NCBI GenBank assembly: GCA_000002435.2
Contig: CM018793.1
Source: Giardia intestinalis
Taxonomy: Eukaryota
Strand: one strand, 5' to 3'
Length of the DNA stretch: 64,000 bases
The stretch's first letter is position 1. Each line of letters opens with the position of its first letter. This document shows positions 608-21,098 of this stretch, piece after piece. The notes below the pieces were generated by a model. It was not told the origin of the DNA. It made no database searches and worked only from the letters and a program-made list of their open reading frames with translations. The position numbers and the translations under genes are program-made.

Positions 608-702
608 CTGAACGGGACTTTTTCTCTATTTGCAATTTCAATTTAAAATGCTTCTCCGACGTTTATTATCCCTATACTCGTCAATATAGTGTAAATAAGA
701 AA

Positions 703-1191: not shown

Positions 1192-1206
1192 ATTGCACCG
1201 TTTACT
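1187..1206. terminator. two-armed stop/poly(A) palindrome AGTAAA-N8-TTTACT shared by convergent genes
   Basis: Stops at 1189-1191 (+) and 1202-1204 (-). Each arm reads AGTAAAY on its own strand. Confidence 0.55.
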
Positions 1207-1675
1207 CGTCGTAGCCCTCCTCGAAGAGGTCCCAGGCATGGTAGAAGCTCTCCAGGGCCGCGCACTTGTCGACGTGCTCGAGCTTGAGCGCCCGCCGCTT
1301 CTCCGGGTCGGGCTCGCGCCAGAAGGCCATCGAGCTGATCTTCTGGAAGGCCCGGAGCGCCCGGATCTGGAGGCGACCGTCCCGGGGCGAGAGGACGGCG
1401 GGGAGCAGCTTCTGGCCGAGGAGCCCCTTCCGCGCCATGTACAGCTCGATCATCTCCGCCCGCCAGCGGGTGAGGCAGCGGATCTGGCCCGCGCGGCGCG
1501 CGCTCCGCCTTCTGAACGCGCGGAGGGGGAGCCTCCCGCGCGGGCACTTATCGCAGCGCAGCCAGAACAGGTGGTCCGAGTAGAACGTGATCAGCTCCCA
1601 GAGCTTCCCCTGGGAGACGGAGGCCGGCTGGGCCAGGATCTCGGGCACGAAGCCGAAGGGAGGGAGGTAGGGCAT
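1202..1675 (-). CDS. hypothetical protein (157 aa)
   Basis: The 308-aa ORF was trimmed to Met152 (MPYLPPFGF...) because that ATG follows gaaagaaaaagggcg and the longer form overlaps the next gene. The stop lies in AGTAAAC. Confidence 0.45.
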   Translation of the reverse strand: MPYLPPFGFVPEILAQPASVSQGKLWELITFYSDHLFWLRCDKCPRGRLPLRAFRRRSARRAGQIRCLTRWRAEMIELYMARKGLLGQKLLPAVLSPRDGRLQIRALRAFQKISSMAFWREPDPEKRRALKLEHVDKCAALESFYHAWDLFEEGYDE

Positions 1676-1775
1676 CGCCCTTTTTCTTTCCCGTCCGCAG
1701 AAGCCGATTTGAAGTGGTTTGCAACACATATGTTGCTTGGCCGTTCTGCAACACATATGCTGCCGCGAATAAATA
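1676..1775. promoter_or_regulatory. divergent promoter region with a duplicated GCAACACATATG(T/C)TGC inverted-repeat motif
   Basis: 100-bp spacer between divergent ATGs. The sequence is ttgcaacacatatgttgc...ctgcaacacatatgctgc. The first copy is GCAACA-cata-TGTTGC (6-bp arms). aataaataATG lies at the right end. Confidence 0.4.
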
Positions 1776-4205
1776 ATGACGCGGCGCATCCAGTGCGGAG
1801 GCTCCAGCCTCGAGATCGACCCGCTGACCGGCGAGCTCTCCTTCGAGGACTTCCTGAACACGGCAGAGCCGCCCGAGCAGGACCCGATGCCCGTCCCGAA
1901 GATCGACGTCGGAGGATCGCTGGAGATACTTAACAGCCCGATTGTCGAGGCTATCTTCGGCGACGTCCTTGATAAGCTAGATCTTTTCAAGAAAGATGTC
2001 GACGCGTTCATTGCGATGCTCAAGCAGAAGACGAAGAACGCGATCAATTGGGGGTTAGCGTTAGTCGGCGTGACGACTGTCTCGGGCCTCATGGTCGTCA
2101 TGGTGAGAGAGATCACCATGGCCATCAAGCGCTGGCAGCGAACGAGAGAGTATCAGGACAGTCAGCAGCCAGAAGCCCAGCCGAAGATGATCTCCAAGGA
2201 GAACATGGAGAAGAAGGACGAGATCAGCGAGATTAGCGGCGAAGATGTGGAACCGCCGAGTCTCGGGGAGTACGAGGAGCAGGTGTATGACGAGAACGGC
2301 AACGCCATGTTGAATCCTGACGGCTCGCCGTTGACAAAGACAGTCGTTATCCCCCTCGATCGGGACATCTCCGACCAGTACGACCCAATTCCCGAACCCG
2401 ATGACATCTCAGAAGAGGAAGAGGAGATAGAAGAGGACGAAGTGGAAGAGGAGCCGCCCATCAAGATAACTGATGAGCTGATCAGCGATATCTTCTGGGA
2501 GTTCGACAAGCAGCCCATCCTCAACGAAGAGAACTTCGAGTTCCTCTACGACAGCGGCGTTTACATCATTCACATCCCCCACGTATATATGAAGCGTACA
2601 TGCAAGTTGGGCGGCGACTATGCGGCCTATCCCTGCAAGATGATCGAAAGCATCATCGGACCTGCCTTATGGGACAGATACGGCCATACATTCAAACTGC
2701 GCTTTCCAAACTGCTCACATCAAGTATCTGGTCCCATGGGCACTGAAATCTGTTGTAAGTGTCATATGAATGATTCAGTTCATTGGAGGATACGCGTAAT
2801 ACCGGACGATCAGCCTATATGGTATAACAACGACTGCACGTGCGGCGCTAATTGCAGTTGTCGTTGCCATACCAAGACTCCAGAGAGCGTCTTCACCGTA
2901 ACATACAATTGCGTTTTTTGGTGTGTTCCCTGTGCCACAAGATGTATCTATACCCAGTACGAATCTGACTGTTGGACTCATTACAATTTTTCCACGGATC
3001 GGGGCTTTAGATCAGAAAGTGTCGCCGATAGTAACGGTTTTAGTTCTGCATATATAATACCCGCAGGTAAAAAAATCATACGTTATGAGAGCGAAAACAA
3101 GAACTACCCATATAACTCGCGCGAGTGCTGTGACTTCTGCAAGGTGATGAAGAATTACTTTTACGAAACCGAGGGCTACAAGCTGCACCGCACCAACACA
3201 GAGGTCTACATCTTCTTCTCCCGCGGCGAGAACTCGACAATCTTCGAGAAATGCAACGACCTCTTCAATGGCTATGTGTCCCAGAAGATCCACGACCTTC
3301 TTTCAGACTGGGACGCTGGCAACAATAAGATCATGAATCGACTCAGCATCGACTGTAAGTGCGATGTGAAGCGGCCGCGCTGCACGGACGTCTTCCGAGG
3401 CCTGGGAGAGGTCCATGCTGATACCGTTGGTTTCCTAAAAGGCCATGCCCAGAAGGTCAAATGGATATACCTCCCCGACTACGATTCAAATCTCGGCTTG
3501 CCTTGGTGGTATGACGACCCGCACGACTACCAATCGATCTCGAAGGTCTGCGCATTCGAGGGCTTCCTCGAGCGCAACATCCCCGAGCACGTCATCCGCT
3601 TCTACTCTTACCGCAGACTCACAGACAAGAAGTGGTTCGGGAACCTCTACAAGCAGATCTGCGATGCGATACTCTTGGATTACCCAGACATGCCTGCGGG
3701 CATTGGGGCTGCTGCGCAGAAGTGGAAGGACTTCAACGCATGGAAAGGCATTGATAAGATGCTCAGCGACGTCGTTCCGGTTAAACAGATATATCCCGAA
3801 CAGGTTTATCCTGAGACGCGGCTCTTCACTAGCAAGCCGGCCAACTGGAACCAGCTGAAGCAGCGCGGCGCGAGTTGGACCGGCGAAGTAGAGCCAGAGC
3901 TCGCGTCCTTCAAGCGCTACCTCGACCTCCTCAACAAGTACTACCCGGGCTGGTGGGAGTTCCGGGAGACGCAGGAGCTCGGCTGGTGGGACAATTTCTG
4001 GACCCAGATACCCGACCTCAGGGACCTTGAGCGGACCTCCATCTTCTACTACGAGGACCTCACCATTGACGAGACCCACTATGAGATATACGGCGAACCT
4101 CCTTGGTGGCGCAGTTTCTGGGGGCCGACGATACGAGACAAGGCGCCCGACCCGGAGAGGCCGCGCACATACGAGGAAACAGTTGAAGTGGCAAGTCGAT
4201 ATTAG
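1776..4205 (+). CDS. membrane-anchored protein with an acidic linker, a Cys-rich central domain and a Trp-rich C-terminus (809 aa)
   Basis: A single hydrophobic span, WGLALVGVTTVSGLMVVMV, lies near aa 92-115. An EEEEEIEEDEVEEE tract follows. CxC/CxxC clusters are dense (CTCGANCSCRCH, CVFWCVPCATRC). The C-terminus has PGWWEF..GWWDNFW..PPWWRSFW. The stop lies in TAGTGAAT. Confidence 0.7.
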   Translation: MTRRIQCGGSSLEIDPLTGELSFEDFLNTAEPPEQDPMPVPKIDVGGSLEILNSPIVEAIFGDVLDKLDLFKKDVDAFIAMLKQKTKNAINWGLALVGVTTVSGLMVVMVREITMAIKRWQRTREYQDSQQPEAQPKMISKENMEKKDEISEISGEDVEPPSLGEYEEQVYDENGNAMLNPDGSPLTKTVVIPLDRDISDQYDPIPEPDDISEEEEEIEEDEVEEEPPIKITDELISDIFWEFDKQPILNEENFEFLYDSGVYIIHIPHVYMKRTCKLGGDYAAYPCKMIESIIGPALWDRYGHTFKLRFPNCSHQVSGPMGTEICCKCHMNDSVHWRIRVIPDDQPIWYNNDCTCGANCSCRCHTKTPESVFTVTYNCVFWCVPCATRCIYTQYESDCWTHYNFSTDRGFRSESVADSNGFSSAYIIPAGKKIIRYESENKNYPYNSRECCDFCKVMKNYFYETEGYKLHRTNTEVYIFFSRGENSTIFEKCNDLFNGYVSQKIHDLLSDWDAGNNKIMNRLSIDCKCDVKRPRCTDVFRGLGEVHADTVGFLKGHAQKVKWIYLPDYDSNLGLPWWYDDPHDYQSISKVCAFEGFLERNIPEHVIRFYSYRRLTDKKWFGNLYKQICDAILLDYPDMPAGIGAAAQKWKDFNAWKGIDKMLSDVVPVKQIYPEQVYPETRLFTSKPANWNQLKQRGASWTGEVEPELASFKRYLDLLNKYYPGWWEFRETQELGWWDNFWTQIPDLRDLERTSIFYYEDLTIDETHYEIYGEPPWWRSFWGPTIRDKAPDPERPRTYEETVEVASRY

Positions 4206-4215
4206 TGAATTTACT
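4204..4215. terminator. stop/poly(A) palindrome AGTGAATTTACT shared by convergent genes
   Basis: Stops at 4203-4205 (+) and 4214-4216 (-). Arms are AGTGAAT (+) and AGTAAAT (-). Confidence 0.55.
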
Positions 4216-7090
4216 AATAACTGATGTTTATAGCCGGGTTCTTTGCCCAGTACCAGATCTTCACCCGGTTACCTGAGCCAAGGGATCTCGAATTCGACCA
4301 TGTTAATCGTAGGTTAATGTACGAATCGCTAGTATAGTCCGACCACGAGACTATGATTGTGTCATATGTACTAACGCGACAATCATACGCCTGGATCGAG
4401 ACAATGTCGTCATTGGATCTGCTCTGCATGTCGCTCGGAAAGTCCGCGAGATTCAGTCGCATGAACCCGTTGCCGTCGGTCGTCTGACTCGGCACAAAGC
4501 TCTTCAGCAGACACGGCGTCTTGAGGGCGTTGCATATCCGCTCTGAGTAGCTGCACAGCGTCTCACAGTCAGTAATCCGGCTCAGCTGATTAGAGAGCTG
4601 AGAGGTGTTCTGAGCGATAGAAGCCAGAGCACCCGTGATCTTACCAGCTTGCTGACTGACGTTGTTCGAGATGACCTGCACCTGGTTGTAGAGCTGGTTA
4701 TAACAACTAATGTGCGAGTTCAGAGACGATTGGACACCGCTAATGCGATTCGTGTTCCCTAAGACAGAGTCCCAAATGCCGCGCTCATTCGACTCAAGCG
4801 CATTGATGCGAGTCTCCAGAGCAGGCACATTTCCAACATTGCCATCAAGACGAGTAAGGCTCTCTCGAATCTCGCTGATGCTCTGGTCGACTGCTGTCAT
4901 GTGGCGGTCATGTGCATCTAAGGCGTCCTGCGTAGAGTCTCTCAAGCTCTCTAGTCGACCGTTTATCTCTCTCGCTGAATTGTTAACTGCATCGATAGTA
5001 GTCGCGAACTCTGTCGTTGTCCTCTCTAACGAACCTATCTTCACCTCAGATGCTTCCACTGTCCTGCTCATCCGAGACAGCGATGAAGAGAAGGCTGCAT
5101 TGTCTGTCTCAAAGACGCCTACCTTTTCAGCGAGCCTTCGGATGATCTCGTCCTGTGCAGCAAGGCGTTCTTCAAAAGCGCTTGCCTTTGCGCGCTCCTC
5201 TTCTAACTGTCTCTCAAGAGAGTCGATACGCGCTGCCGTTAATTGAGCGCCCACCTTTGCCTCGACCTTCTGCTGGTCGATGAGCTCTCTGAGATAGTTG
5301 TACGCGCCCTCGAGGTCTCTCTTGATCGTCATAGCATCGATCAGACCTCCCTCGAAGTCGGGAACTGAGATGTCGTTCCGCTCAAAGAACTGTGCGACAA
5401 TGGTCATCAGAATCTCCATGCGGTTCCGGAACTCCATGAGACTGTCCTGGTTACCCTCGAGCACGCTCACGCGGTCCTTCGTTTCATCTAACTGAACGCG
5501 GTCATCGTCAGTGTGACTCGTCAAGTCCCGAATACGCTCTTCAGCTCGCTTTACTTCCAAATGGGTCAAGGTCATATCATCGTTTATGTGTGAGAACTCA
5601 TCCCAAATGAACTGGAAGCGTTTATAAAGATCATCAGTCAGAAACTTGTATATCTTGCCGAACTTATAGTCATGCTGGTCGAGGCGGTACTTCGCTTCCA
5701 CTGCATATGTAAGGGCTACCGCAGCGACGACGCCAAGACACGCGTCTATCACATATCCGGTAATCAAGTTAATCAGATTCAGCTTCCGGAAAAGACCGCC
5801 CCCTGCGGCGATAATAGTATCAAACTCGCCGAGCTTATCCTTCATCAGATCTTCCTTCGTGAACGTCTTCTTCTTGATGAGATCGATCTGGCCCTCGGCG
5901 CGCTTGATGCGAGCCTCTAGAGTCTTCCGCTGCTTCTCGAGACGGTTGATCTTTGAATCGGCTTTCATTGCGTGCTTAGCAAGATAACGCGTTTGATGTG
6001 AGATGCGTCCCTTGCTAAGCTTCTTGAGACTCTTAATGGCTGTAACGTTACCGCCGATCTTGTAGTACTTTCCGAGGTGCTTGCGAAGACCATTGTCCTC
6101 GTCGCCGTCCTCATCGAAGCCCTGAAGCTGTCGATAGAGCCACATTGTCTGCTGGTTGAGCGAGGCGGCCATGAAGTCTGCACGAGACACGCGACCATCG
6201 GGAGAGAGCTTCTGATTGCTGCGACCAGCAAGCGACCCGCCGACCATCTGATAGATATACTGGATCTGCTCGATGACCGGTTGGCTCTTCAAATCGTCTT
6301 CGCTAATAGCGCCCGTCACGCCCTTGATGGAGATATCAGCATCTCTTGCAGCTCGCAGCCCAAACGTCTCAGGCTTCTTTATCTTACGTGGCTTCTTCGG
6401 CTCCTTTGGCTTCCTCTCCTTCTTGAGCTTCTTCTTCTTATCTGTAAGCGGCAGAAGGTCCTCCCGAAAAGCATAGTTGCCCCTTACCATCCACGTGACA
6501 GCAAGGATCTTCTGAACAATCGTCAGGTCGCGCAAATAGTCGAGCTTGTTCGGCGCATTCATATAGTCCTCCGGCTGGAAGTTGTTGTTGAAGCCGACCA
6601 TTGGGACCGACTTGACCTTCGGCTTCGAGAGAGTCTGCCCGGTTAGAGACATCGTATAGAGATCCGCAGGCACAGTCTTGAAGCCCAGTATCTCCTCCAT
6701 GAACTTCACTAGAAACGCTAGACACGGACCCTTCACCGGAGACTCTCCGTCGAAGGCATTGCCGTTCCAGTTCTTGATTTCATAGTTCTCATGATTACAA
6801 TAGTACTTGATGCACTTCTTTCGCTGAGCGGGGTCAAGAAGCTGCACGGCGCAGTGTATTGTCTTCCCGCCAAAGTACCCCGATATGCAGTGAGTCTTGC
6901 TGAGATTCAGGTTAGACCCAAACAGAGCTTTGCGTTCGTCAGGCACTAAGGCACACTGCATCACGTAGTCTTTGATGAGGTTATAATGATACGATGAGAG
7001 TGCGCTGACCTTATCTGCGAACGACTGCATCGACTCTGTCGTCATGAAGACGCCGTCGAGCTGCTCCCTGCGGATGATGAGGTTGTTCAT
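4214..7090 (-). CDS. large protein (958 aa): N-terminal domain, basic KKKKLKKERKPKEPKKPRKIKKPE tract, one central hydrophobic span, long coiled coil and a beta-rich C-terminal head (fibre/spike-like architecture)
   Basis: Uninterrupted 958-aa ORF. The hydrophobic segment is LINLITGYVIDACLGVVAAVALTYAV. About 350 aa of heptad-like sequence follow (RIDSLERQLEEERAK, KIGSLERTTTEF, ETRINALESNERG). The terminal ~100 aa are rich in S/T/Y/W (VSWSDYTSDSYINLRLTWSNS...KIWYWAKNPAINISY). Confidence 0.75.
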   Translation of the reverse strand: MNNLIIRREQLDGVFMTTESMQSFADKVSALSSYHYNLIKDYVMQCALVPDERKALFGSNLNLSKTHCISGYFGGKTIHCAVQLLDPAQRKKCIKYYCNHENYEIKNWNGNAFDGESPVKGPCLAFLVKFMEEILGFKTVPADLYTMSLTGQTLSKPKVKSVPMVGFNNNFQPEDYMNAPNKLDYLRDLTIVQKILAVTWMVRGNYAFREDLLPLTDKKKKLKKERKPKEPKKPRKIKKPETFGLRAARDADISIKGVTGAISEDDLKSQPVIEQIQYIYQMVGGSLAGRSNQKLSPDGRVSRADFMAASLNQQTMWLYRQLQGFDEDGDEDNGLRKHLGKYYKIGGNVTAIKSLKKLSKGRISHQTRYLAKHAMKADSKINRLEKQRKTLEARIKRAEGQIDLIKKKTFTKEDLMKDKLGEFDTIIAAGGGLFRKLNLINLITGYVIDACLGVVAAVALTYAVEAKYRLDQHDYKFGKIYKFLTDDLYKRFQFIWDEFSHINDDMTLTHLEVKRAEERIRDLTSHTDDDRVQLDETKDRVSVLEGNQDSLMEFRNRMEILMTIVAQFFERNDISVPDFEGGLIDAMTIKRDLEGAYNYLRELIDQQKVEAKVGAQLTAARIDSLERQLEEERAKASAFEERLAAQDEIIRRLAEKVGVFETDNAAFSSSLSRMSRTVEASEVKIGSLERTTTEFATTIDAVNNSAREINGRLESLRDSTQDALDAHDRHMTAVDQSISEIRESLTRLDGNVGNVPALETRINALESNERGIWDSVLGNTNRISGVQSSLNSHISCYNQLYNQVQVISNNVSQQAGKITGALASIAQNTSQLSNQLSRITDCETLCSYSERICNALKTPCLLKSFVPSQTTDGNGFMRLNLADFPSDMQSRSNDDIVSIQAYDCRVSTYDTIIVSWSDYTSDSYINLRLTWSNSRSLGSGNRVKIWYWAKNPAINISY

Positions 7091-7159
7091 TATTTATTTT
7101 CCCCACTCACACCAACCATTTGAAAGTGGAATCTGTTCTGAGAAAATAAAATGACGTAA
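7091..7159. promoter_or_regulatory. conserved bidirectional intergenic cassette (copy C1) with a 2-codon uORF ATG-ACG-TAA abutting the polB ATG
   Basis: The sequence is tatttattttcc...CCAACCATTTGAAAGTGGAATCT...GAGAAAATAAAATGACGTAAATG. Related cassettes lie at 11795-11867, 18294-18365 and 19231-19343, with an orphan at 20700-20747. Confidence 0.5.
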
Positions 7160-10100
7160 ATGGCAACCACTAGGGAACTCCTGACCATGCATCCCCAGCA
7201 GATGTCCGAGGACCAGCTCGCCCAGCTCAAGACGTCGCTCGAGACGCTCAACTACACCCAGCTCCGACAATACGTGCTCGGCCGCGTCAAGCCCCTCATC
7301 GAGAACGTCCGCAAGCACATCCAGGAGGACCCCGTCGGCTCGGTAGATCAAGTCCTCGACTTCCAGGACGGCTTCTGGTCCAAGGACCTGATCCAGCGCG
7401 TCCGCTGGAACCTCGCCCAGTTCAGGGTAAACGAGAAGAACCCCCGCAGAGTGCCGACCAGCAGAGCGAAGGAGGCGCTGGAGCTGAACTACATGACCGA
7501 CTACTCCTTCCGGCGCATCGTCTACCCGATCGTCGCAGACCTCGCCAAGGCTCTTTATCTCCGCGCAGAGGAAGCTAACCGCCGCAACACCGACGCTTCG
7601 GTGCGCTATGTCCCGCTTCTTGTCATGTTCAACCAGCAGAACACGTTCGGCTATCCGCCCCGCGTCGCCTTCCTCGTGACGCCTGCCGTCATCACGTTCC
7701 TCCGCGGATGGAAGGTCTTCGCCGACGGAGACGACGCCCACCAGCACTACCTCAACGCGGTCACGAGGGACGCGGCGCAGATCCACGGCGTCCAGTCCGC
7801 AGAGCCTGGCGAGATGCTCTACTGCTTCAACTGGGACCCCATTTTCGCCGGCACAGAGAGCGACCCCGAGAACCCCCGCAACGCCATGTTCTCCTTCGGG
7901 ACGATGTACGAGCCCGTCTTCATCTTCCAGATCCAGATCATCCGCACCAGAGAGGGCCAGCGGAAGCTCATCCACCGCAGGGGAGGTATGGCGCCCTTCA
8001 CGAACGACTCGTTCTTCGACCTCACGCGCTACCAGATCGAGAAGACAGGCGAGGGCTTCAAGAACAGCAAGGACACGTGTTTCCTCTACGCCCTCAAGCA
8101 GAGCGGCGTGCTGAGCGACGACGAGATACGGGCCGCCGCCTTCCACATCAACCAGGCCTCTGTCACCTTCGCGATGATCGACGCCATCGGCAAGCAGCTC
8201 TTCGTCTGCTTCCACATGCACATGGCAGACAGGGTCGTCCTCAAGGGCGCGCAGAAGAACCGCAAGGTTCCGCCGGGCGTCGCGATCCGGAACATCCACC
8301 TGGGCTTCGACTTCAACCACTACTACATCTTCGACGAGAAGCTCCCCTACAGCAAGACGTACGTGAACAACGCAGCCGTCATGATGGAGCACCACACATA
8401 CCCCGCGAACACGAACCTGCGCGAGGTCAACGTCAGAGACACCTTCCACCCGCAGACCAGGGAGCCGACGAAGAAGGTCGTCTTCGGCTACCACCGCGAC
8501 GACGACCCCCATACATGCTCGAGTCGGGACCTCATCCTCTCGCTCCACAAGCAGGGCCTCCTCAAGCCCATCCGCTCCGACAGCCTGCTGGCCATCAAGG
8601 AGTCCTTCATCCGCGAAGAGCACTACGAGGAGGACGCGCTCAACTACTGCGAGGACCAGCTGAAGGAGATCACGCCGAAGAAGAAGACCCAGTCGCCCAA
8701 GGACGTCTGGTTCGCAGACTTCGAGACGACGACCGACGGGGACCAGCACCACCCGTTCCTCCTCTGCTTCCACGGGATCAACAACGTCACGGGGACGTAC
8801 TGGGCGAAGGACTACAACAGCATCGGGGACATGGTCCGAGCGGCCTTCAACCGCCTCGCGATGCTCAACCGGCCCCAGCTGGTGTACTTCCACAACCTCA
8901 ACTACGACGGGGCCTTCGTCCTCCCGTACTTCGACGTCAAGAAGGACAGCATCGTCACCCTCGGGGCGAGCAAGATCATCGCGTTCACGATCCATGTCCG
9001 GCTGAGCGACGACCGGAAGAACAAGCCGATCCCGATCCACTTCCGGGACTCCTACGCCCTGATCACGGCTCCCCTCAGCAAGTTCGGCAAGATGTTCAAC
9101 CTCAACGTGCACAAGGAGGTCCTCCCGTACTCGTTCTACACCCAGGACAACGTCAAGAAGCTGTGCCAGGGCTTCAAGCCGACGCTCGAGGAGTACCTCT
9201 CGTACGAGATCGAGAGCAGGAGGGAGGAGCTCGAGCAGCTGCTCCGTACGCTGCCGGAGATGCTGGTAATAGACAGGGTCGACGCCTTCAAGTACGCCCA
9301 CTACTACTGCGCAAGAGACTGCCACGTGCTCAAGGACGGGGTGATGGGCTTCAGACGCCAGCTCCTCGAGGTCACGGGCATCGACGCCTTCACATCCATG
9401 ACGCTCCCGAGCATTGCCTACAACTTCCTCATCAACGAGAAGTGCTTCGAGGGCTGCTTCAACCTCAACACGGCGCCGCTCCTCTTCGTACGCCAGTGCG
9501 TGACGGGCGGGCGCTGCATGCTCCGGTGCAACGAGAAGCAGTACGTCGAGGGCGAGGTCATGGACTTCGACGCCGTCTCGCTGTATCCGTCTGCCATGGC
9601 GCGCCTCCACACCCTCATGGGCCACCCGAAGATCGTCGACCCCGAGAAGCACGACCTCGGCTGGCTCCTCCGGCAGGACGGCTGCTTCCTCGAGATCGAC
9701 ATCGAGGTCGTCCCGAAGCAGCTCGACTTCCCCCTCATCAACAGGCAGACGGAGAAGGGGAGGCACTTCTCGAACGAGCCGGGCCCGATGTTCGCCGACA
9801 ACATCACGATCGAGGACATCATCGAGTACCACAAGGTCCCGATGAACCGGATCAGGGTCCTCCGGGGCTACTACTACGACGAGGGCAAGAACACGAACAT
9901 CCAGGCCGTCATCCGGAAGATCTTCGAAGCGCGGCTCAAGTTCAAGGCGGAGGGCAACCCGCTCGAGAGCATCTACAAGCTCATCATGAACAGCTGCTAC
10001 GGGAAGAGCATCCTCAAGCCCGTCTACAAGCGGATGAACACGGTCGACCACGCGGGCCTTGAGAGAGAGCTCCTCGACAACTCGGCCGATGTCCTCTGCT

Positions 10101-10756
10101 GGGAGCCGCTCTACGACGGCGGCCGCTTCCTCCTCAAGCAGAGCAAGCCCCTTCTGGAGGCGAACAGCTTCCCGACGTTCGGGGTCCAGGTGCTCTCGAT
10201 GAGCAAGCGCATCATGACGGAGGTGATGGCGACGGCCCAGGACCACGGGCTCCCGATCTACTACACAGACACGGACAGCATCCACATCGACAAGGCGTCC
10301 ATCGAGCCCCTCCGGAACTACTTCCACGCGCGCTTCCAGCGGGAGCTCATCGGGAAGAACCTCGGCCAGTTCCACTCAGACTTCCCCGACAGCCCCTCCG
10401 GGGAGATGTTCGTCAGCCGCTACTTCATCGGCGTCGGCAAGAAGGCATACCTCGACATCCTCCAGGACAGCCAGAACAACATGAGCTACCACGCGCGCCT
10501 CAAGGGCATCCCCGAGCAGGCGATCCTCAACGAGGCCCGGCAGCGCTGCTCCCACAACTTCCTCGGCGGGCTCTACAACCTCTACGCGGACCTCTACAAC
10601 GGCGTGCCCCAGACCTTCAACCTCATCTACGACGGCGCGGTGCGCTTCGTGCGAGACGCCAGCCTCGCCTACCGCTGCAGGGACGACTTCAAGCGGAGAG
10701 TCATCTTCGAGAGGGAGCCCGATGAGCCCCTGAACATATCAAAGCTGATGCAGTAA
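7160..10756 (+). CDS. family-B DNA polymerase of the protein-primed type (pPolB), 1198 aa, with a ~500-aa N-terminal extension
   Basis: Exo I is VWFADFETTTDG (aa ~517-527). Exo II is FHNLNYDGAF (aa ~577-586). Exo III is YYCARDCHVL (aa ~715-724). Motif A is DFDAVSLYPSAM (aa 802-813). Motif B is KLIMNSCYGKS (aa 940-950). Motif C is YYTDTDSIH (aa 1034-1042). A KKAY motif lies at aa ~1094-1097. The stop lies in AGTAAAT. Confidence 0.92.
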   Translation: MATTRELLTMHPQQMSEDQLAQLKTSLETLNYTQLRQYVLGRVKPLIENVRKHIQEDPVGSVDQVLDFQDGFWSKDLIQRVRWNLAQFRVNEKNPRRVPTSRAKEALELNYMTDYSFRRIVYPIVADLAKALYLRAEEANRRNTDASVRYVPLLVMFNQQNTFGYPPRVAFLVTPAVITFLRGWKVFADGDDAHQHYLNAVTRDAAQIHGVQSAEPGEMLYCFNWDPIFAGTESDPENPRNAMFSFGTMYEPVFIFQIQIIRTREGQRKLIHRRGGMAPFTNDSFFDLTRYQIEKTGEGFKNSKDTCFLYALKQSGVLSDDEIRAAAFHINQASVTFAMIDAIGKQLFVCFHMHMADRVVLKGAQKNRKVPPGVAIRNIHLGFDFNHYYIFDEKLPYSKTYVNNAAVMMEHHTYPANTNLREVNVRDTFHPQTREPTKKVVFGYHRDDDPHTCSSRDLILSLHKQGLLKPIRSDSLLAIKESFIREEHYEEDALNYCEDQLKEITPKKKTQSPKDVWFADFETTTDGDQHHPFLLCFHGINNVTGTYWAKDYNSIGDMVRAAFNRLAMLNRPQLVYFHNLNYDGAFVLPYFDVKKDSIVTLGASKIIAFTIHVRLSDDRKNKPIPIHFRDSYALITAPLSKFGKMFNLNVHKEVLPYSFYTQDNVKKLCQGFKPTLEEYLSYEIESRREELEQLLRTLPEMLVIDRVDAFKYAHYYCARDCHVLKDGVMGFRRQLLEVTGIDAFTSMTLPSIAYNFLINEKCFEGCFNLNTAPLLFVRQCVTGGRCMLRCNEKQYVEGEVMDFDAVSLYPSAMARLHTLMGHPKIVDPEKHDLGWLLRQDGCFLEIDIEVVPKQLDFPLINRQTEKGRHFSNEPGPMFADNITIEDIIEYHKVPMNRIRVLRGYYYDEGKNTNIQAVIRKIFEARLKFKAEGNPLESIYKLIMNSCYGKSILKPVYKRMNTVDHAGLERELLDNSADVLCWEPLYDGGRFLLKQSKPLLEANSFPTFGVQVLSMSKRIMTEVMATAQDHGLPIYYTDTDSIHIDKASIEPLRNYFHARFQRELIGKNLGQFHSDFPDSPSGEMFVSRYFIGVGKKAYLDILQDSQNNMSYHARLKGIPEQAILNEARQRCSHNFLGGLYNLYADLYNGVPQTFNLIYDGAVRFVRDASLAYRCRDDFKRRVIFEREPDEPLNISKLMQ

Positions 10757-10763
10757 ATTTACT
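10752..10763. terminator. perfect 12-bp stop/poly(A) palindrome AGTAAATTTACT
   Basis: Stops at 10754-10756 (+) and 10763-10765 (-). Confidence 0.6.
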
Positions 10764-11794
10764 TAGCGCTCCATAATCTCCTTGAACCTCCCAAAGGTTA
10801 GAGGCTCAGCATTGAAGAACTTCTTCTTCCTTGCCCACGCAGAGAGACGATCGAAGAAAGCCTCAGACGATATCTGCTTGTCCCCAATGGTAAAGCTGTA
10901 ACGACGATCATGATACTCATCAATATCGAACCAGGCGTCTGTGATCGCAAACTGACGCGTAACAGCAGCTGCCTTTATCAAACAGTACTGGCCACCGCTC
11001 CATATGGTTCCCACATGACCCGGCTCTATCGCGACAACTGGGTTGTAAATGCCCTTATGCTCGAGGAGGAACTCGTTCGTCTGCCTGATCGTGTCAAGCG
11101 CATCGACCTCGCACAGACGATGAGGATCATCCGAGGCCCTGTCCTTGATGTGGTCCTCACAGACAGCCGGGTCGATAGCGAAGCGCACATGGAAGGCCGG
11201 AAGGATGCCTGCGCGGAGCATGTAGTGGTCGATCAGGTAGTGGAGGTACTGGCCTTGCTCCTTCGTGATGTAGCCGTCACTCATCTTGAAGAGGATGAAC
11301 GCGCTAGTAGACGGCAGCCAGCGGTCGAAGATGATGAAGTCGTACTGCTGATACTCTTCGGCAAAACGGCAATGAAGAAGCTGCTTCCCCAGTGCATGGA
11401 CCACCTGCTCCTGGAACTGGAAAGCAAGCTCCCTGGGGTTCTTGTAGTACTCCTCGAGGGTGATGCCTCCGTTCTGTCCAAAGTGGTTGTCTGCCACGGC
11501 CTCCTCGATGATGGTAGCTTCGAAGCCTTGGTCGATCAGGTACTTCTTGAGATGCTTGCAGAAGGTGGACTTGCCTGCGCCGATGGGACCGTCAACAACG
11601 ATGATGCGAGGATCAATGACAACAGGCGGCACAACTCTCGAACTGAAATCGCTGAGCTTCCATACGAGGTTATCGTCCATGTTGATCCCGATGTCAACTG
11701 ACTCCAGAAAGTCTTCGACTGGCCAGTGTGATGATTTACTATCGATGAGGCCTGGCTCAGCTGGCTGGTTCTGGGGCTCGTAGTACTGGCTCAT
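10763..11794 (-). CDS. deoxynucleoside kinase family protein (dNK/dCK-like P-loop kinase) with N- and C-terminal extensions
   Basis: The start was trimmed to MSQYYEPQNQ, which follows ggaaaataaa. The P-loop is VVDGPIGAGKST. Other dNK-like motifs are IIEEAV, LEEYYKNPRELAFQFQ and IIFDRWLPSTSAF (ERS-like), plus the lid-like HIKDRASDD. Order and spacing resemble Drosophila dNK and dCK/dGK. Confidence 0.75.
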   Translation of the reverse strand: MSQYYEPQNQPAEPGLIDSKSSHWPVEDFLESVDIGINMDDNLVWKLSDFSSRVVPPVVIDPRIIVVDGPIGAGKSTFCKHLKKYLIDQGFEATIIEEAVADNHFGQNGGITLEEYYKNPRELAFQFQEQVVHALGKQLLHCRFAEEYQQYDFIIFDRWLPSTSAFILFKMSDGYITKEQGQYLHYLIDHYMLRAGILPAFHVRFAIDPAVCEDHIKDRASDDPHRLCEVDALDTIRQTNEFLLEHKGIYNPVVAIEPGHVGTIWSGGQYCLIKAAAVTRQFAITDAWFDIDEYHDRRYSFTIGDKQISSEAFFDRLSAWARKKKFFNAEPLTFGRFKEIMER

Positions 11795-11867
11795 TTTATT
11801 TTCCCAGTAGTGCACGTCTCAAGAGCCAAACCATTTTAAAGTGAATTCTCCCCACGGAAATAAAAGT
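11795..11867. promoter_or_regulatory. conserved bidirectional intergenic cassette (copy C2)
   Basis: The sequence is tttattttcc...GCCAAACCATTTTAAAGTGAATTCTCCCC..GGAAATAAAAGTATG. Confidence 0.5.
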
Positions 11868-12122
11868 ATGGCTGGCCACCTTCTCAACAGCAACGGGACC
11901 GCGAAGAACGAGAACAAGCTCTACACCCAGAAGCCGACGCCCTTCTACGACGCGGGCACGGTGCCGGTCCGTCTGTCCTCGGTACCCTTCGAGAGCCGCA
12001 ACGAGCCGATCCGCGTCCAGATCGACGAGCCGCCCAAGCAGCGCCCGCGAGCTGGTCTAGTGCGCACCCGCAAGAGGATGATCCCGAGGAACCGCTGGAA
12101 GAGGAACGGGAACAAGCAGTAA
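11868..12122 (+). CDS. small basic protein (84 aa), island-specific
   Basis: The start was trimmed to MAGHLL, which follows GGAAATAAAAGT. The C-terminus is basic (RAGLVRTRKRMIPRNRWKRNGNKQ). A paralog lies at 18366-18617. The stop lies in AGTAAAC. Confidence 0.55.
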   Translation: MAGHLLNSNGTAKNENKLYTQKPTPFYDAGTVPVRLSSVPFESRNEPIRVQIDEPPKQRPRAGLVRTRKRMIPRNRWKRNGNKQ

Positions 12123-12723: not shown

Positions 12724-12754
12724 GCTTATTTTATTTTCCTGGGAGCCCTGTAAC

Positions 12755-12826
12755 CAGATCAGATCAGAATTGATTCCTGATCAATTCGGACGAAGCGACG
12801 ACTCCAGAAAAAAAAATAACGCTGAC
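12755..12826. repeat. partial copy of the 5' part of repeat module R (GATCA/GAATTGAT iteron-like array plus A9-TAACGCTGAC)
   Basis: Patchy match to 13702-13792 and 19809-19905. It includes the 8-bp inverted repeat GAATTGAT-tcctg-ATCAATTC. Confidence 0.6.
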
Positions 12827-12839
12827 GTGAATTCGATGT

Positions 12840-13679
12840 TTACTTTGCAAACAGCTTTACGATGTCTTCCTTGTCTCCGGCAATGGCCAACGCAAAAACC
12901 CTACCATTATTGATGTCCTTCTCCTTATCTGCCAACAAAGCAGCACAAGCAGCATGGCCATTTCTCACAGCCCACTCGAAAGCAGTACCACGGGCGTTAT
13001 TGCATAACCTGGCCTCCTTATCTAACAACAGCTTGACGATGTCTGCGTAACCACAGGATGCTGCTAGCATGAGAGCGGTCCAGCCGTCGTTATCCTTCAT
13101 GCCTGCCTCCTTCTCCGCTAATAGGTTAGCGCACTTAGTGTGACCCTTACACGCAGCCCACATGAGAGCAGTCCTACCATCTTTATTCTTCATGCCGGCC
13201 TCCTTCTCTAACAACAGCTTAACGCTGTATGCGGAATCCTTGGATGCTGCTATTATGAGAGCCGACCCGCAGCATCTCGCACATATACCGGCCTCCTTCT
13301 TCACTAGCAGGTCAACGCACTTAAAATTAAACTTACTCACAGCCCACATGAGGGCGGTCCTACCGATGACATCCTTCATACCAGCCTCCTTCTCTAACAG
13401 CAGCTTAACGCAGTCTGTATAGCCTTCGGATGCTGCTATCATGAGAGCCGTCAAGCCGTGTCCATCACTCATACCAGCCTCCTTCTCCACTAGCAGGTTA
13501 GCGCAGTTAGTATGACCCTCCCTCGCAGCCCACATGAGGGCAGTCCAGCTGTTGAAATCCCTCAGGCCAGCCTCCTTGTCTACTAGTTCCCTGACGACAT
13601 CGATGTTACCTTGCGCTGCTGCTTCTATGAGATCCCTAAAACCATATCCTGGCGACTTGTATTCTCGATAAGCCTTCAT
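12840..13679 (-). CDS. ankyrin-repeat protein (279 aa, ~8 repeats of the TALMWAA..GH..CV.LL..KEAG type)
   Basis: A regular ~33-aa ANK periodicity runs through the whole ORF. The start is ggaaaataaaatATG. The stop lies in AAGTAAAC. Confidence 0.88.
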   Translation of the reverse strand: MKAYREYKSPGYGFRDLIEAAAQGNIDVVRELVDKEAGLRDFNSWTALMWAAREGHTNCANLLVEKEAGMSDGHGLTALMIAASEGYTDCVKLLLEKEAGMKDVIGRTALMWAVSKFNFKCVDLLVKKEAGICARCCGSALIIAASKDSAYSVKLLLEKEAGMKNKDGRTALMWAACKGHTKCANLLAEKEAGMKDNDGWTALMLAASCGYADIVKLLLDKEARLCNNARGTAFEWAVRNGHAACAALLADKEKDINNGRVFALAIAGDKEDIVKLFAK

Positions 13680-13701
13680 ATTTTATTTTCCTCCCCGCCC
13701 T

Positions 13702-14161
13702 GAATCAATTAATCAGATCAGAATCAATTCGTCAGAATGGTTTGCACTTCCTGACTGCCGCCTCCCAGAAAAAAAAAATAACGCTGGCCTGCTTTCTGCT
13801 TTCGGGCTGTCTGTATGTCGCACTTCGGTGTCGTGCGGGCCCGGGGGCAGGGAGCAGACCAGGCTGGCCGGCAGCTGAACCGGGCGCGAACGCATCACAC
13901 ACATCCAAGGACAACGCGGTCTCCTCCCGGCGTGCACGGCACCACGCTGGGCGGTTCCGGGGGGAGGCCGCGATTTTTTTTGAAAATTTACAGGTTTTTT
14001 ATTCTGTTGAAAAGTAGGTAAACGAGCGCCAGCGTGTGGGAGCCTAGTGGGCGGACCGGCACACGCAGACGCACTTGTGGGGGACGCTTTCGTTTTTTTG
14101 GGCCCAGCCCCGTGCAGGCCCAAAAAAACGAAAGTGGGCACCACAAGGATATATACTACTG
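13702..14161. repeat. repeat module R, copy A (~460 bp)
   Basis: Colinear with 19809-20231. The order is a GAATCA array, A10-TAACGCT, a conserved core GTATGTCGCAC..GGTGTCGTGCGGGC, ~190 bp of GC-rich sequence, T8 and an AT-rich tract, an 18-bp-stem hairpin (14087-14134), then GGATATATACTACTG. Homology stops abruptly after this last motif. Confidence 0.85.
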
Positions 14162-17100: not shown

Positions 17101-17229
17101 TACGACGGCGCCGTCCGCTTCGTCCGCGACGCGCACCTCGCCTACCGCTGCCGCGACGACTTCAAGCGCCGCGTCATCTTCGAGAAGGAGCCCGACGCGC
17201 CCCTGAACGTCGTCAAGCTCATGCAGTGA
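14162..17229 (+). pseudogene. second pPolB copy, 5'-truncated (starts at the equivalent of aa ~173) and frame-broken around Exo II
   Basis: The 14075-15478 frame and the 14560-17229 frame together are colinear with polB aa ~173-1198. Motifs A, B, C and KKAY are intact (DFDAVSLYPSAM, KLIMNSCYGKS, YYTDTDS). A net 10 nt are missing between 15274 and 15474. There is no ATG or promoter at the 5' junction with module R. Confidence 0.85.
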
Positions 17230-17236
17230 ATTTACT
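17225..17236. terminator. stop/poly(A) palindrome AGTGAATTTACT
   Basis: Stops at 17227-17229 (+) and 17232-17234 (-). Confidence 0.55.
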
Positions 17237-18293: not shown

Positions 18294-18365
18294 TTTATTT
18301 CCTGGCGGCCTCCCCAATAAATGCCAAAGCATTTGAAAGTGAATTCTCCCGCCAAAAATAAAAGT
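18294..18365. promoter_or_regulatory. conserved bidirectional intergenic cassette (copy C3)
   Basis: The sequence is tttatttcc...GCCAAAGCATTTGAAAGTGAATTCTCCCGCCAAAAATAAAAGTATG. Confidence 0.5.
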
Positions 18366-18617
18366 ATGGCAGGCCACCTCCTCAGCAGCAAGGGGACCAC
18401 GAAAAACGAGAACAAGCTCTTCACCCAGAAGCCGACGCCCTTCTACGACGCAGGCACCGTCCCGGTCCGCCTCGCGTCCGTGCCCTTCGAGAACCGCAAC
18501 GAGCCGATTCGCGTCCAGATCGACGAGCCGCCCAAGCCCCGCCCTCGCGCAGGCCTCGTCCGCACCCGCAAGAGGCTGATCCCGAGGAACCGCTGGAAGA
18601 AGAACACGTACCAGTAA
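18366..18617 (+). CDS. small basic protein (83 aa), paralog of 11868-12122
   Basis: The protein reads MAGHLLSSKGTTKNENKLFTQKPTPFYDAGTVPVRL... About 70 of its first 79 residues are identical to copy 1. Confidence 0.55.
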   Translation: MAGHLLSSKGTTKNENKLFTQKPTPFYDAGTVPVRLASVPFENRNEPIRVQIDEPPKPRPRAGLVRTRKRLIPRNRWKKNTYQ

Positions 18618-19230: not shown

Positions 19231-19343
19231 GCGTCCTTTTATTTTCTTGACGCTCCTATCATAAAGACGCAAACCATTTCAAATCCACTTCTACCAAACA
19301 ATATTAAATTCACTTCCTTCCGGCGTCTGCAGAAAAAAAAAAA

Positions 19344-20699: not shown

Positions 20700-20800
20700 A
20701 AAAACCCAAACCATTGCAAATCGGAATCTCTCCCGGAAAATAAAATGACGCCGGCGCTGCCGGTATGTCGCACCGAGGTGTCGTGCGGGCGCCTGGAAGG
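20700..20800. repeat. orphan copy of the polB-type promoter cassette fused to the R-module core
   Basis: The sequence is ACCCAAACCATTGCAAATCGGAATCTCTCCCGGAAAATAAAATGACG (compare 7112-7156), followed by GGTATGTCGCACCGAGGTGTCGTGCGGGC (compare 13812-13840). Confidence 0.6.
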
Positions 20801-20864
20801 CCTTTCCTCAAGCCCCTCTGCGGAGGGCAGGGCAAGAGCCTGCGCGGCCTGCCCTGGGCGCTGT

Positions 20865-21098
20865 TTACTTCGGCTGGCTCCCGTGGGAGAGCACAACCGA
20901 GACCTTGCGGCAAGCCCTCCCCTGGCCGAGCGTGAACCTGACAGTGAGCTGGTCCAGGCGCATCACAGCGCGGAACGCGGCTCGAACGGTGCGGGGGAGG
21001 GCTCGAACGGCTCGAGCGATGCAGAGGAGCCTCGAGAAGATCCCGGGCGGCCTCGGGGGGTGCTCCAGAGGCGGCGTCGGAATGGTGGCATCAGACAT
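20865..21098 (-). CDS. possible small ORF (77 aa). It is the only ORF in the GC-rich block with both a host-type initiator and a poly(A) motif.
   Basis: The ATG follows ggaaataaaaagcagcgacc. The stop TAA lies inside AAGTAAAC. It sits in very GC-rich sequence where random ORFs abound. Confidence 0.3.
   Translation of the reverse strand: MSDATIPTPPLEHPPRPPGIFSRLLCIARAVRALPRTVRAAFRAVMRLDQLTVRFTLGQGRACRKVSVVLSHGSQPK

What the first reader, a model, noticed from the sequence alone, without database searches (positions are those of the whole stretch)
7091..7162. Island-specific conserved bidirectional promoter cassette, and a 2-codon uORF abutting the polymerase start
Seen: four divergent junctions (7091-7159, 11795-11867, 18294-18365, 19231-19343) and one orphan (20700-20747) share a cassette. 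Its order is CAT-tttatttt(c)c, then (G)CMAACCATTTNAAA(G)TG(R)AWTCTC, then G(R)AAATAAAA(G)T-ATG. The A/T-rich ends are the generic initiators. The central CAAACCATTT..AAAGTGAATTCTC box is not seen at host promoters in this window. Upstream of polB the cassette ends AAAATAAAATGACGTAAATGGCA. That gives an ATG-ACG-TAA mini-uORF whose stop directly abuts the real ATG. With the very short 5' UTRs typical of Giardia, this could throttle polymerase translation or mark the transcription start between the two ATGs. The orphan copy reads AAAATAAAATGACGCCGG, so the TAA is lost.
Basis: seen in the sequence. Interest (0 to 1): 0.5.

Follow-up and report, generated by a model that had tools for sequence, protein, structure and literature searches.

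The report
Oriented promoter box in Giardia provirus
A 24-base motif sits a fixed few bases upstream of the start signal of a subset of genes in a virus-like element integrated in the Giardia genome; it is very likely a class-specific promoter element, while the tiny upstream reading frame before the polymerase gene is a lineage-specific by-product.

Summary
The window is Giardia intestinalis WB. The box CAAA[C/G]CATTTNAAA[T/G][T/C]G[G/A]A[A/T]TCT occurs 8 times, all in intergenic DNA of positions 1-21000. A matrix built only from other isolates recovers them at 19-35 bits. The 43 kb of host DNA gives at most 14 bits, and shuffles at most 17. The box is oriented, not symmetric. In 26 of 33 instances across nine lineages an A-rich initiator starts 0-10 nt downstream on the same strand (median 5). 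The opposite gene's initiator lies 0-57 nt away. The island is the right arm of a Maverick/Polinton-like endogenous virus with protein-primed polB, an A32-like ATPase and a weak integrase signal. Its left arm has no box, so the box marks a gene class. The ATG-ACG-TAA uORF exists and is in frame, but only in WB-type sequences. Three lineages have out-of-frame upstream ATGs and four have none. The "orphan" is the element's right-end promoter, which precedes a conserved structured non-coding segment, not a decayed polB cassette. No transcription or binding data were available.

The parts
7091..7102 (-). A-rich initiator of the 958-aa gene. It reads GGAAAATAAATA on the minus strand and abuts that gene's ATG at 7090.
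   Evidence: All orthologues have the same kind of element.
7103..7111 (.). Variable spacer between the minus-side initiator and the box.
   Evidence: Across nine lineages the stretch from the CAT to the box ranges from about 12 nt in L002 to about 40 nt in L004 and L017. It cannot be aligned.
7112..7135 (+). Upstream promoter box CCAACCATTTGAAAGTGGAATCTG, oriented toward polB.
   Evidence: It scores 31-33 bits. It is collinear and gap-free with the initiator in nine lineages.
7142..7150 (+). A-rich initiator GAAAATAAA on the polB side. This is the predicted region of transcription start.
   Evidence: The sequence is shown. The position rule comes from PMC3792122 and PMC1872034. The 5' end was not mapped here.
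7151..7159 (+). Two-codon upstream ORF ATG-ACG-TAA. It is in frame with the polB ATG and directly abuts it.
   Evidence: It is present only in the window and L001. It lies in a leader (GACGTAA) that other lineages conserve without an ATG.
7160..10756 (+). Protein-primed family B DNA polymerase gene (1198 aa).
   Evidence: It matches PF03175 at 5e-37. dN/dS against ten other sequences is 0.07-0.60, and 0.07-0.34 within the Giardia clade. Its 90%-identity cluster contains XP_001707488.1.
632..655 (-). Box before the RING-finger gene (8-607, minus strand). It is followed by GAGAAAAAG and a 10-nt leader.
   Evidence: It is conserved in L002 and L016.
1698..1721 (-). Box before the 157-aa gene (1202-1675, minus strand).
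   Evidence: The same box is in L001, and one precedes the L004 orthologue.
11827..11850 (+). Box before the conserved 84-aa gene (11868-12122), in the junction shared with the dNK gene.
   Evidence: It is doubled in L002 and L017.
18325..18348 (+). Box before the second copy of the 84-aa gene (18366-18617). It is a paralogue of 11827-11850 through the 6.48-kb duplication.
19270..19318 (+). Two tandem boxes before the 147-aa gene (19344-19787). The first is 19270-19293, a variant with TCCACTTCT as its right half. The second, 19295-19318, is degenerate.
   Evidence: The same variant box occurs at L004 14709 and L016 13076.
20707..20744 (+). Box plus initiator of the so-called orphan. It is the orthologue of the element's right-end promoter.
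20745..20870 (+). Conserved GC-rich segment downstream of the orphan promoter. It appears to be non-coding and has predicted hairpins.
   Evidence: It is 75% identical to L004 over 118 nt. Three compensatory pairs occur among three sequences. The reading frame is not conserved in L017.
1721..1763 (+). Second, different promoter motif GCAACACATATGYTGC, present twice before the 809-aa gene (1776-4205).
   Evidence: It also lies before the 209-aa gene of the same element at L020 8134 and 8201.

Best explanation
The polB/958-aa junction holds two opposed Giardia-type A-rich initiators, each next to its own start codon. It also holds an oriented 24-bp upstream promoter element that belongs to the polB side.

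The composite 'box, then 4-8 bp, then A-rich initiator' precedes a defined subset of transcription units. These are polB, the conserved 84-aa gene, a RING-finger gene, a 157-aa gene, a 147-aa gene and a right-end non-coding unit. All lie in the right arm of a Maverick/Polinton-like endogenous viral element in G. intestinalis.

If transcription starts in the A-run, as is usual in Giardia, the box spans roughly -12 to -38. That is the position a TATA/BRE-type element would occupy. The inferred mechanism is that a sequence-specific DNA-binding factor, from the host or the element, binds the box. It then fixes or boosts assembly of the transcription complex on the adjacent initiator. This gives one class of the element's genes a common control that differs from two other classes. 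One class carries the GCAACACATATG motif. The other is the left-arm genes, which have bare initiators.

The ATG-ACG-TAA upstream ORF most likely arose as a side effect. A leadered initiator (GAAAAGAAAAAGGACGTAAG-ATG) changed toward the common GAAAATAAAATG form. It is tolerated rather than selected.

Shown here: the motif, its statistics, orientation, spacing, class restriction, conservation, and the variability of the uORF. Inferred: protein binding, effect on transcription, and position of the 5' end.
For: - Enrichment and cross-validated detection.
- There are 35 instances in nine Giardia-clade lineages, all intergenic.
- In 26 of 33 instances an initiator-like A-rich 9-mer starts 0-10 nt downstream on the same strand (median 5). 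The exceptions are mostly distal members of tandem pairs or sites at or near contig ends. The opposite-strand initiator is 0-57 nt away (median 22).
- In the nine-lineage alignment of the polB junction, the stretch from the box to the initiator has essentially no gaps. The flank toward the 958-aa gene varies in length and sequence.
- polB is under purifying selection against every lineage compared, with dN/dS 0.07-0.34 within the Giardia clade. dS against the Giardia-clade lineages other than near-identical L001 is 0.42-2.3. The retained motif is therefore not just recent identity.
- The box precedes non-homologous genes.
- Host promoters in the window lack it.
- The 10-kb left arm of the same element lacks it.
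- Giardia promoters are 40-60 bp long. A 15-bp motif specific to one gene family (him) is already known to be essential for the histone promoters (PMC1872034).
- Genome-wide TSS-seq found no motif other than the AT-rich initiator (PMC3792122).
Against: - No transcription, 5'-end or protein-binding data were available for these genes.
- The rest of the 12-Mb host genome could not be scanned, so use of the box by some host genes is not excluded.
- Identity in the polB-junction box (67-83% against WB) is only modestly above third-codon-position identity (51-77%). The argument rests on the contrast with the flanking spacer and on recurrence at unrelated genes.
- In clade-2 lineages (L012, L013, L014, L016) the dNK/84-aa junction keeps only a half-box, in the opposite orientation. 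The full box is therefore not indispensable for that gene.
Confidence: 0.7

Rival explanations
1. The box is a truly bidirectional central element that serves both divergent genes equally.
For: - In most divergent junctions the box lies within 60 bp of the opposite ATG, which is within Giardia promoter range.
- Giardia promoters are reported to be inherently bidirectional (PMC1885649, listed).
- The box has weak dyad symmetry, CCATTT-N-AAAT-N-GG (counts).
Against: - Spacing to the opposite initiator is variable and rich in indels, whereas spacing to the same-strand initiator is fixed.
- The box occurs where no divergent gene is present, for example 20707, L017 16323 and L014 7171.
- In tandem doublets both copies keep one orientation.
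- TSS-seq authors argue that apparent bidirectionality in Giardia is two adjacent unidirectional events.
Confidence: 0.2
2. The ATG-ACG-TAA upstream ORF is a selected translational throttle, or a termination-reinitiation device, for the polymerase.
For: - The uORF is real, in frame, and its stop abuts the polB ATG.
- If the 5' end lies in the A-run, the upstream ATG is 1-8 nt from the cap, which is optimal in Giardia. The polB ATG would then be 10-17 nt away, and recruitment falls beyond 9 nt (PMC3388326, citing Li and Wang 2004).
- In all nine lineages the polB ATG lies 7-11 nt beyond the initiator.
Against: - The uORF occurs only in the window and its 98%-identical relative.
- L002, L004 and L017 have out-of-frame overlapping uORFs of 11-20 codons. 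L012, L013, L014 and L016 have no upstream ATG in the leader.
- polB is under purifying selection in all of them.
- An unrelated gene of L004 shows the same kind of initiator-abutting upstream ATG, while its WB orthologue does not. This points to a by-product of initiator turnover.
- An AAA triplet directly before the polB ATG could itself be the start site.
Confidence: 0.15
3. The shared sequence is only a footprint of promoter duplication or gene conversion within a repetitive element and has no specific function.
For: - The island contains a 6.48-kb duplication and scrambled fragments.
- Tandem box duplications occur in several lineages, so the cassette clearly spreads by duplication.
Against: - The box is retained at orthologous positions across lineages with polB dS of 0.4-2.3, while neighbouring spacer is unalignable.
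- Orientation and spacing relative to the initiator are constant at non-homologous genes.
Confidence: 0.08
4. The box is a host cis-element shared with host genes of some regulon, for example DNA metabolism or the cell cycle. The element has merely adopted it.
For: - The right half contains AATCT. This fits the loose Giardia GARP-type site (A/G)ATCN quoted in PMC9295799.
- Box-bearing genes include polB, and the box lies in the junction shared with dNK.
Against: - None of 15 host promoters in the window has it.
- Genome-wide promoter studies reported no such motif.
- A 4-nt resemblance carries almost no information.
Confidence: 0.12

Closest known systems
Giardia histone motif 'him' with the AT-rich initiator (PMC1872034)
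   Same: Both are conserved motifs of 15-24 bp restricted to one gene set. Both lie just upstream of an A-rich initiator, inside a promoter of at most about 50 bp, in the same organism.
   Different: The sequences differ (him is GRGCGCAGATTTNGG). him has been shown by deletion and gel shift to act, whereas the box has not been tested. The box belongs to a virus-like element rather than to core host genes.
Class-specific (early/late) promoter motifs of large DNA viruses and virophages, such as the mimivirus early AAAATTGA motif and the baculovirus late TAAG (own knowledge, not checked here)
   Same: In both cases a short motif at a fixed distance upstream of a subset of a viral element's genes marks a class. 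Other genes of the same element carry a different motif or none.
   Different: Those viruses bring their own transcription machinery or factors, and their temporal classes were measured. Here the machinery is presumably host RNA polymerase II acting on Giardia initiators, and no timing data exist.
Maverick/Polinton elements and Polinton-like viruses
   Same: The element has a protein-primed polB and an A32/FtsK-type ATPase above the Pfam cut-off. It also has a weak rve-type integrase signal. It is tens of kilobases long and integrated in a eukaryotic genome.
   Different: The capsid proteins, the protease and the terminal inverted repeats were not demonstrated. The element also carries dNK, RING and ankyrin genes and large coiled-coil and Cys-rich proteins, and it lies in head-to-tail truncated copies.
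Minimal upstream ORFs and stop-start reinitiation sites, such as the AUG-stop uORF of plant NIP5;1 and the UAAUG of influenza B (own knowledge, not checked here)
   Same: All have a very short reading frame whose stop touches the main start codon.
   Different: Those examples are conserved and were shown to regulate. This one is confined to one lineage, and it is not known whether it is even in the mRNA.

Membership tests
Giardia AT-rich initiator core promoter | A/T-rich element abutting the start codon or within about 20 nt of it | tested here: met
   GRAAATAAA or GAAAAGAAAAAGG lies before every island gene. Similar but looser elements lie before host genes.
Giardia AT-rich initiator core promoter | Transcription starts at an A inside the element | not testable with these tools
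   The rule is taken from PMC3792122 and PMC1872034. No 5'-end data for these genes could be reached.
Gene-set-specific upstream promoter element (him-like) | Conserved motif of at least 15 bp within about 50-60 bp of the start codon | tested here: met
   The 24-bp box has its 3' end 14-26 nt from the first ATG at proximal copies.
Gene-set-specific upstream promoter element (him-like) | Fixed orientation and spacing relative to the initiator | tested here: met
   In 26 of 33 boxes the initiator starts 0-10 nt downstream on the same strand, with a median of 5.
Gene-set-specific upstream promoter element (him-like) | Restricted to one gene set and absent from other promoters | tested here: inconclusive
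   It is absent from 43 kb of host DNA in the window and from the element's own 10-kb left arm. The rest of the genome could not be scanned.
Gene-set-specific upstream promoter element (him-like) | Required for promoter activity and bound by a nuclear protein | not testable with these tools
   This needs reporter assays and gel shift or pull-down experiments.
Regulatory upstream ORF | Upstream ATG with a stop before or at the main ATG | tested here: met
   The uORF occupies 7151-7159.
Regulatory upstream ORF | Conserved in orthologues | tested here: not met
   It is present only in the window and L001. Three lineages have different out-of-frame upstream ATGs, and four have none in the leader.
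Regulatory upstream ORF | The upstream ATG lies within the mature mRNA and is translated | not testable with these tools
   No 5'-end or ribosome-profiling data were accessible.
Maverick/Polinton-like element | Protein-primed family B DNA polymerase | tested here: met
   PF03175 at 5e-37 and 128 bits.
Maverick/Polinton-like element | FtsK/A32-type packaging ATPase | tested here: met
   L020 16037-17065 belongs to the same element, left of the window. It matches Pox_A32 at 25.4 bits against a cut-off of 22.8. The L009 homologue scores 26.9 bits.
Maverick/Polinton-like element | Retroviral-type (rve) integrase | tested here: inconclusive
   The rve match scores 20.5 bits (L020) and 18.9 bits (L009). 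Both are below the 32.6-bit cut-off.
Maverick/Polinton-like element | Double jelly-roll major capsid protein, penton protein and maturation protease | not tested
   The candidates are the 445-aa and 507-aa genes next to the ATPase. They gave no Pfam or PHROG match.
Maverick/Polinton-like element | Terminal inverted repeats | tested here: inconclusive
   A candidate right terminus was found: a hairpin followed by GGATAYATACTACT. No inverted copy was present in the sequence held.

The most novel reading that the evidence does not exclude
The element is a still-functional Maverick/Polinton-like DNA virus lineage of Giardia with its own three-tier transcription programme. The first tier is the box promoters, which drive replication and regulatory genes and a structured non-coding RNA. 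The second is the GCAACACATATG promoters, which drive a second class. The third is the bare initiators that drive the ATPase and morphogenesis arm. The box would be read by a dedicated factor, possibly encoded by the element. This would be the first DNA-virus gene-expression code described in a diplomonad.
Probability: 0.25. Interest if true: 0.7.

Novelty: new member of a known kind. Interest (0 to 1): 0.48.

Why it matters
Giardia transcription is poorly understood. Genome-wide studies found only the AT-rich initiator and no other promoter motif (PMC3792122). A long, information-rich, position-locked upstream element offers three things:
- It could serve as bait for isolating a sequence-specific Giardia transcription factor.
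- It could become a compact regulated promoter for Giardia genetics.
- It is evidence that a roughly 30-50-kb region, previously flagged only as a "very large divergent region" between the WB and P15 genomes, is a Maverick/Polinton-like endogenous virus. That element has organised gene classes, and its genes evolve under purifying selection.

The uORF on its own matters little.

Tried and rejected
- **IMG/VR.** No polB relative was found. The two exact box matches (L018, L019) lie in AT-rich contigs with no similarity to any element protein, so they are chance hits.
- **Rfam.** A search of 1-24500 at gathering thresholds found nothing.
- **Small island proteins.** Pfam, PHROGs and PDB sequence searches of the RING, 162-aa, 157-aa, 84-aa, 198-aa and 147-aa proteins gave no DNA-binding candidate. 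The only matches were RING and coiled-coil or tape-measure-like noise for the 958-aa protein. The 84-aa protein looks largely disordered with a basic tail, so I ran no further search on it.
- **Expression and 5'-end data.** The TSS-seq supplements hold no gene table. An encystation expression matrix is indexed by GL50803 identifiers that I could not map to these genes.
- **Li and Wang 2004** is not held, so I used a review's summary instead.
- **Host synteny in other lineages.** The fetched contigs contain no flanking host genes. Synteny with P15 is supported only by a supplementary table.
- **The orphan as a truncated polB promoter.** I considered this because it shares GGAAAATAAAATGACGCC with L002. 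I rejected it because homology continues downstream with the right-end region of L004 and L017.
- **The 146-codon ORF opened by the orphan ATG as a gene.** I rejected this because L017 has a stop at codon 31 and a 10-nt indel relative to L004.
- **Resemblances to YY1 (CCATnTT) and g-CAB.** These are recalled from memory and were not tested.
Full report
**Identity of the window**

The window is Giardia intestinalis WB (assemblage A). The 702-aa tRNA synthetase at 30224-32332 is identical to XP_001707446.1. The protein at 26071-26952 is delta-giardin XP_001707449.1. The 1198-aa polymerase falls in the 90%-identity cluster that contains XP_001707488.1 of WB and EFO61616.1 of isolate P15.

**Check of the observation**

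At the polB junction the coordinates are:
- CAT of the 958-aa gene: 7088-7090
- its initiator: 7091-7102
- the box CCAACCATTTGAAAGTGGAATCTG: 7112-7135
- GAAAATAAA: 7142-7150
- ATG-ACG-TAA: 7151-7159
- the polB ATG: 7160

The upstream ATG is in frame with polB.

The core AACCATTNNAAA with at most one mismatch occurs 8 times against 2.1 expected, and no shuffle reached 8. The 23-mer with at most three mismatches occurs 4 times against 0 expected.

To avoid circularity I built a weight matrix from 11 boxes of other isolates only. It finds the window boxes at 25-35 bits. It also finds a degenerate tandem copy at 19295-19318 at 18.8 bits. The best score in the roughly 43 kb of host DNA is 14.3 bits, and the best over 50 shuffles is 17.3 bits.

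One is at 632-655(-) before a RING-finger gene. One is at 1698-1721(-) before a 157-aa gene. The third is the tandem copy at 19295-19318, which explains the long 19231-19343 junction. The 11795-11867 and 18294-18365 junctions are copies from a 6.48-kb duplication. Fifteen host upstream regions in the window have A-rich initiators but no box.

**Related sequences**

The polymerase has 12 relatives at 98-54% identity in public assemblies. I fetched their contigs.

Nine lineages at 75-98% identity keep the same gene order: 809 aa, 958 aa, polB, dNK, 84 aa, 198 aa. These are the window, L001, L002, L004, L017, L016, L012, L013 and L014. L014 belongs to the cluster that contains assemblage B proteins.

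polB is under purifying selection against every lineage compared. Within the Giardia clade dN/dS is 0.07-0.34. dS against the clade members other than near-identical L001 is 0.42-2.3.

Scanning all of these contigs gives 35 boxes. All are intergenic. None occurs in the distant relatives L007, L009 and L010. The consensus is CAAA[C/G]CATTTNAAA[T/G][T/C]G[G/A]A[A/T]TCT. Positions AAA.CATTT.AAA....A.TCT are nearly invariant in 34 distinct sequences.

**Anatomy: the box is oriented**

In 26 of 33 boxes an initiator-like A-rich 9-mer starts 0-10 nt downstream on the same strand (median 5). The exceptions are mostly the distal members of tandem pairs or sites at or near contig ends. The initiator of the opposite gene is 0-57 nt away (median 22).

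In a nine-lineage alignment of the polB junction, the stretch from the box to the initiator has essentially no gaps. The stretch from the CAT of the 958-aa gene to the box ranges from about 12 nt (L002) to about 40 nt (L004, L017). In L016 it holds a second box.

Boxes also stand where no divergent gene exists, for example at 20707, L017 16323 and L014 7171.

The distance from the box 3' end to the first ATG at proximal copies is bimodal. In one group, 14-18 nt, the ATG abuts GRAAATAAA. In the other, 21-26 nt, the initiator is GAAAAGAAAAAGG and a leader of 8-12 nt follows.

If transcription starts in the A-run, the box covers about -12 to -38. TSS-seq and 5'-RACE in Giardia support a start in the A-run (PMC3792122; PMC1872034). 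This 5' end was not mapped here.

**What the island is**

polB matches PF03175 and the neighbouring gene matches dNK. A WB-type contig fetched through the RING protein (L020) shows that the element continues at least 10 kb to the left of the window. That stretch holds the following genes:
- a 209-aa gene
- a 773-aa gene
- a 342-aa gene with a weak rve integrase match (20.5 bits, below the cut-off)
- an 872-aa gene
- a 181-aa gene
- a 129-aa gene
- a 342-aa ATPase that matches Pox_A32 at 25.4 bits (cut-off 22.8)
- a 445-aa gene divergent from the ATPase

Five of these genes, including the ATPase, have homologues in the 20-kb virus-like contig L009. L009 also shares polB, dNK and parts of the 958-aa and 809-aa proteins.

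The island is therefore the right arm of a Maverick/Polinton-like endogenous viral element.

A supplementary table of the P15 genome paper lists this locus as a "very large divergent region in WB and P15 with inversion". The coordinates are CH991767:1340594-1390492 in WB and contig88 in P15. [quoted passage not shown] I found no paper that combines Giardia with pPolB. A Giardia polymerase appears only as a leaf in a 2015 tree.

**The box marks a class, not the whole island**

The 10-kb left arm has no box. Its genes are packed head to tail, with bare initiators embedded in the end of the preceding gene.

A different motif, GCAACACATATGYTGC, occurs twice before the 809-aa gene (1721-1763). It occurs twice before the 209-aa gene (L020 8134, 8201). 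It is conserved in L001 and L002, and copies or variants lie in L004, L016 and L017.

So the element has at least three promoter types. By analogy with DNA viruses this could reflect temporal classes, but no expression data were available.

**The uORF**

Among the nine lineages:
- The window and L001 have ATG-ACG-TAA-ATG.
- L002 has an upstream ATG at -10, out of frame, opening 11 codons that overlap polB.
- L004 and L017 have one at -7, out of frame, opening 18-20 codons.
- L012, L013, L014 and L016 have no upstream ATG in the leader. They read AGGACGTAGAATG, AGGACGTAAGATG, AGGACGCAAGATG and ACCGCAAGATG.

The leader GACG(T/C)AA is older than the ATG. A few changes that convert GAAAAGAAAAAGG toward GAAAATAAAATG create the upstream ATG.

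The same thing happened in another gene. The L004 179-aa gene has an initiator-abutting out-of-frame upstream ATG with a 22-codon uORF. Its WB orthologue has a leadered initiator without one.

What is constant is that the polB ATG sits 7-11 nt beyond the initiator. A review citing Li and Wang 2004 states that mRNA recruitment in Giardia is efficient with a 1-nt leader and falls beyond 9 nt. A modest damping of polymerase translation is therefore plausible but unproven. In WB an AAA triplet directly before the polB ATG could itself be the start site.

**The orphan**

The sequence downstream of 20745 is 75% identical over 118 nt to L004 16316-16430. It aligns with the region that follows the box promoter beyond the 198-aa gene in L004 and L017. 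The orphan is therefore the element's right-end promoter.

The segment it precedes is not coding. L017 has a stop at codon 31 and a 10-nt indel relative to L004. It folds into hairpins with three compensatory pairs among three sequences. This is suggestive only, given the small sample. Rfam has no match.

**Mechanism and rivals**

My preferred explanation is that the box is an oriented upstream core-promoter element. A sequence-specific factor reads it and positions or stimulates initiation at the adjacent initiator for one gene class of the element (confidence 0.7).

The rivals, with my confidence in each, are:
- a symmetric bidirectional role (0.2)
- a selected uORF throttle (0.15)
- a host regulon element adopted by the virus (0.12); the only lead is AATCT fitting the loose GARP site (A/G)ATCN
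- a functionless duplication footprint (0.08)

**Limits**

There are no transcription, 5'-end or binding data. The rest of the Giardia genome could not be scanned. The capsid genes and terminal repeats of the element were not demonstrated.

Noticed in passing
window 1721-1736 and 1748-1763; L020 8134 and 8201; L001, L002, L004, L016, L017: A second near-palindromic motif specific to the element, GCAACACATATGYTGC, occurs in two tandem copies before the 809-aa Cys-rich gene. It occurs again before the 209-aa gene left of the window. It is probably a second promoter class.
   Followed up: partly
window 20745-20870; L004 16313-16445; L017 16400-16535: A conserved GC-rich segment follows the right-end box promoter. 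It has no conserved reading frame. Its predicted hairpins show three compensatory pairs among three sequences. It may be a non-coding RNA of the element, and Rfam has no match.
   Followed up: partly
window 13803-13843, 19910-19950, 20753-20793: The unit GTATGTCGCACnnnnGGTGTCGTGCGGGC occurs three times. At 13766 and 19883 it is preceded by the initiator-like CAGAAAAAAAAAATAACGCTG. It is duplicated in L004 and L017.
   Followed up: partly
window 14074-14160 and 20145-20230; L014 7680-7756; L004 16744-16810; L001 12932-12945: A hairpin (T7GGG...CCCA7) is followed by GGATAYATACTACT. After that point the lineages diverge, and the L001 contig ends there. It is a candidate right terminus of the element. 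No inverted copy was found in the sequence held.
   Followed up: partly
window 14135-17229 and 20360-20444: A second polB copy starts at about codon 165 just after the terminus motif, and it is frameshifted. A third fragment covers only codons 570-600. The arrangement is a head-to-tail array of 5'-truncated copies, which hints at how the element integrates or replicates.
   Followed up: partly
L020 8323-17529 (the same element, left of window position 1): The element continues at least 10 kb beyond the window. That stretch holds an A32-like ATPase, a weak rve-like protein and large ORFans that match L009 genes. The window shows only the right arm.
   Followed up: yes
window 11868-12122 and 18366-18617: The 84-aa protein has a basic C-terminus and no family match. 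It is among the most conserved genes of the element: 96% identity to L002, where polB is 85%, and 80% over 59 residues to L007, where polB is 63%.
   Followed up: partly
window 10763-11794 versus 17232-18293: The two deoxynucleoside-kinase copies are only 47% identical. The second copy is 76% identical to the L002 kinase. The two tandem units therefore come from different element variants or from an old duplication.
   Followed up: no
window 12740-13790: An ankyrin-repeat gene (12840-13679, also present in L001) sits inside the element. Duplicated pieces of the right-end promoter region flank it, including a partial box on the minus strand near 13735.
   Followed up: no
L010 and L017: A distant virus-like contig of about 19 kb (polB 54% identical, with an ATPase and an integrase-like gene) and a Giardia-clade element come from the same sample, ERZ27273579. 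This is compatible with a free or second element in the same host population.
   Followed up: no
window 4214-7090 and 1776-4205: The 958-aa protein has a long coiled coil and a beta-rich C-terminal domain, which makes it look like a fibre. The 809-aa protein has an N-terminal membrane segment and a Cys-rich body. Both have partial homologues in L009 and may be virion components.
   Followed up: no
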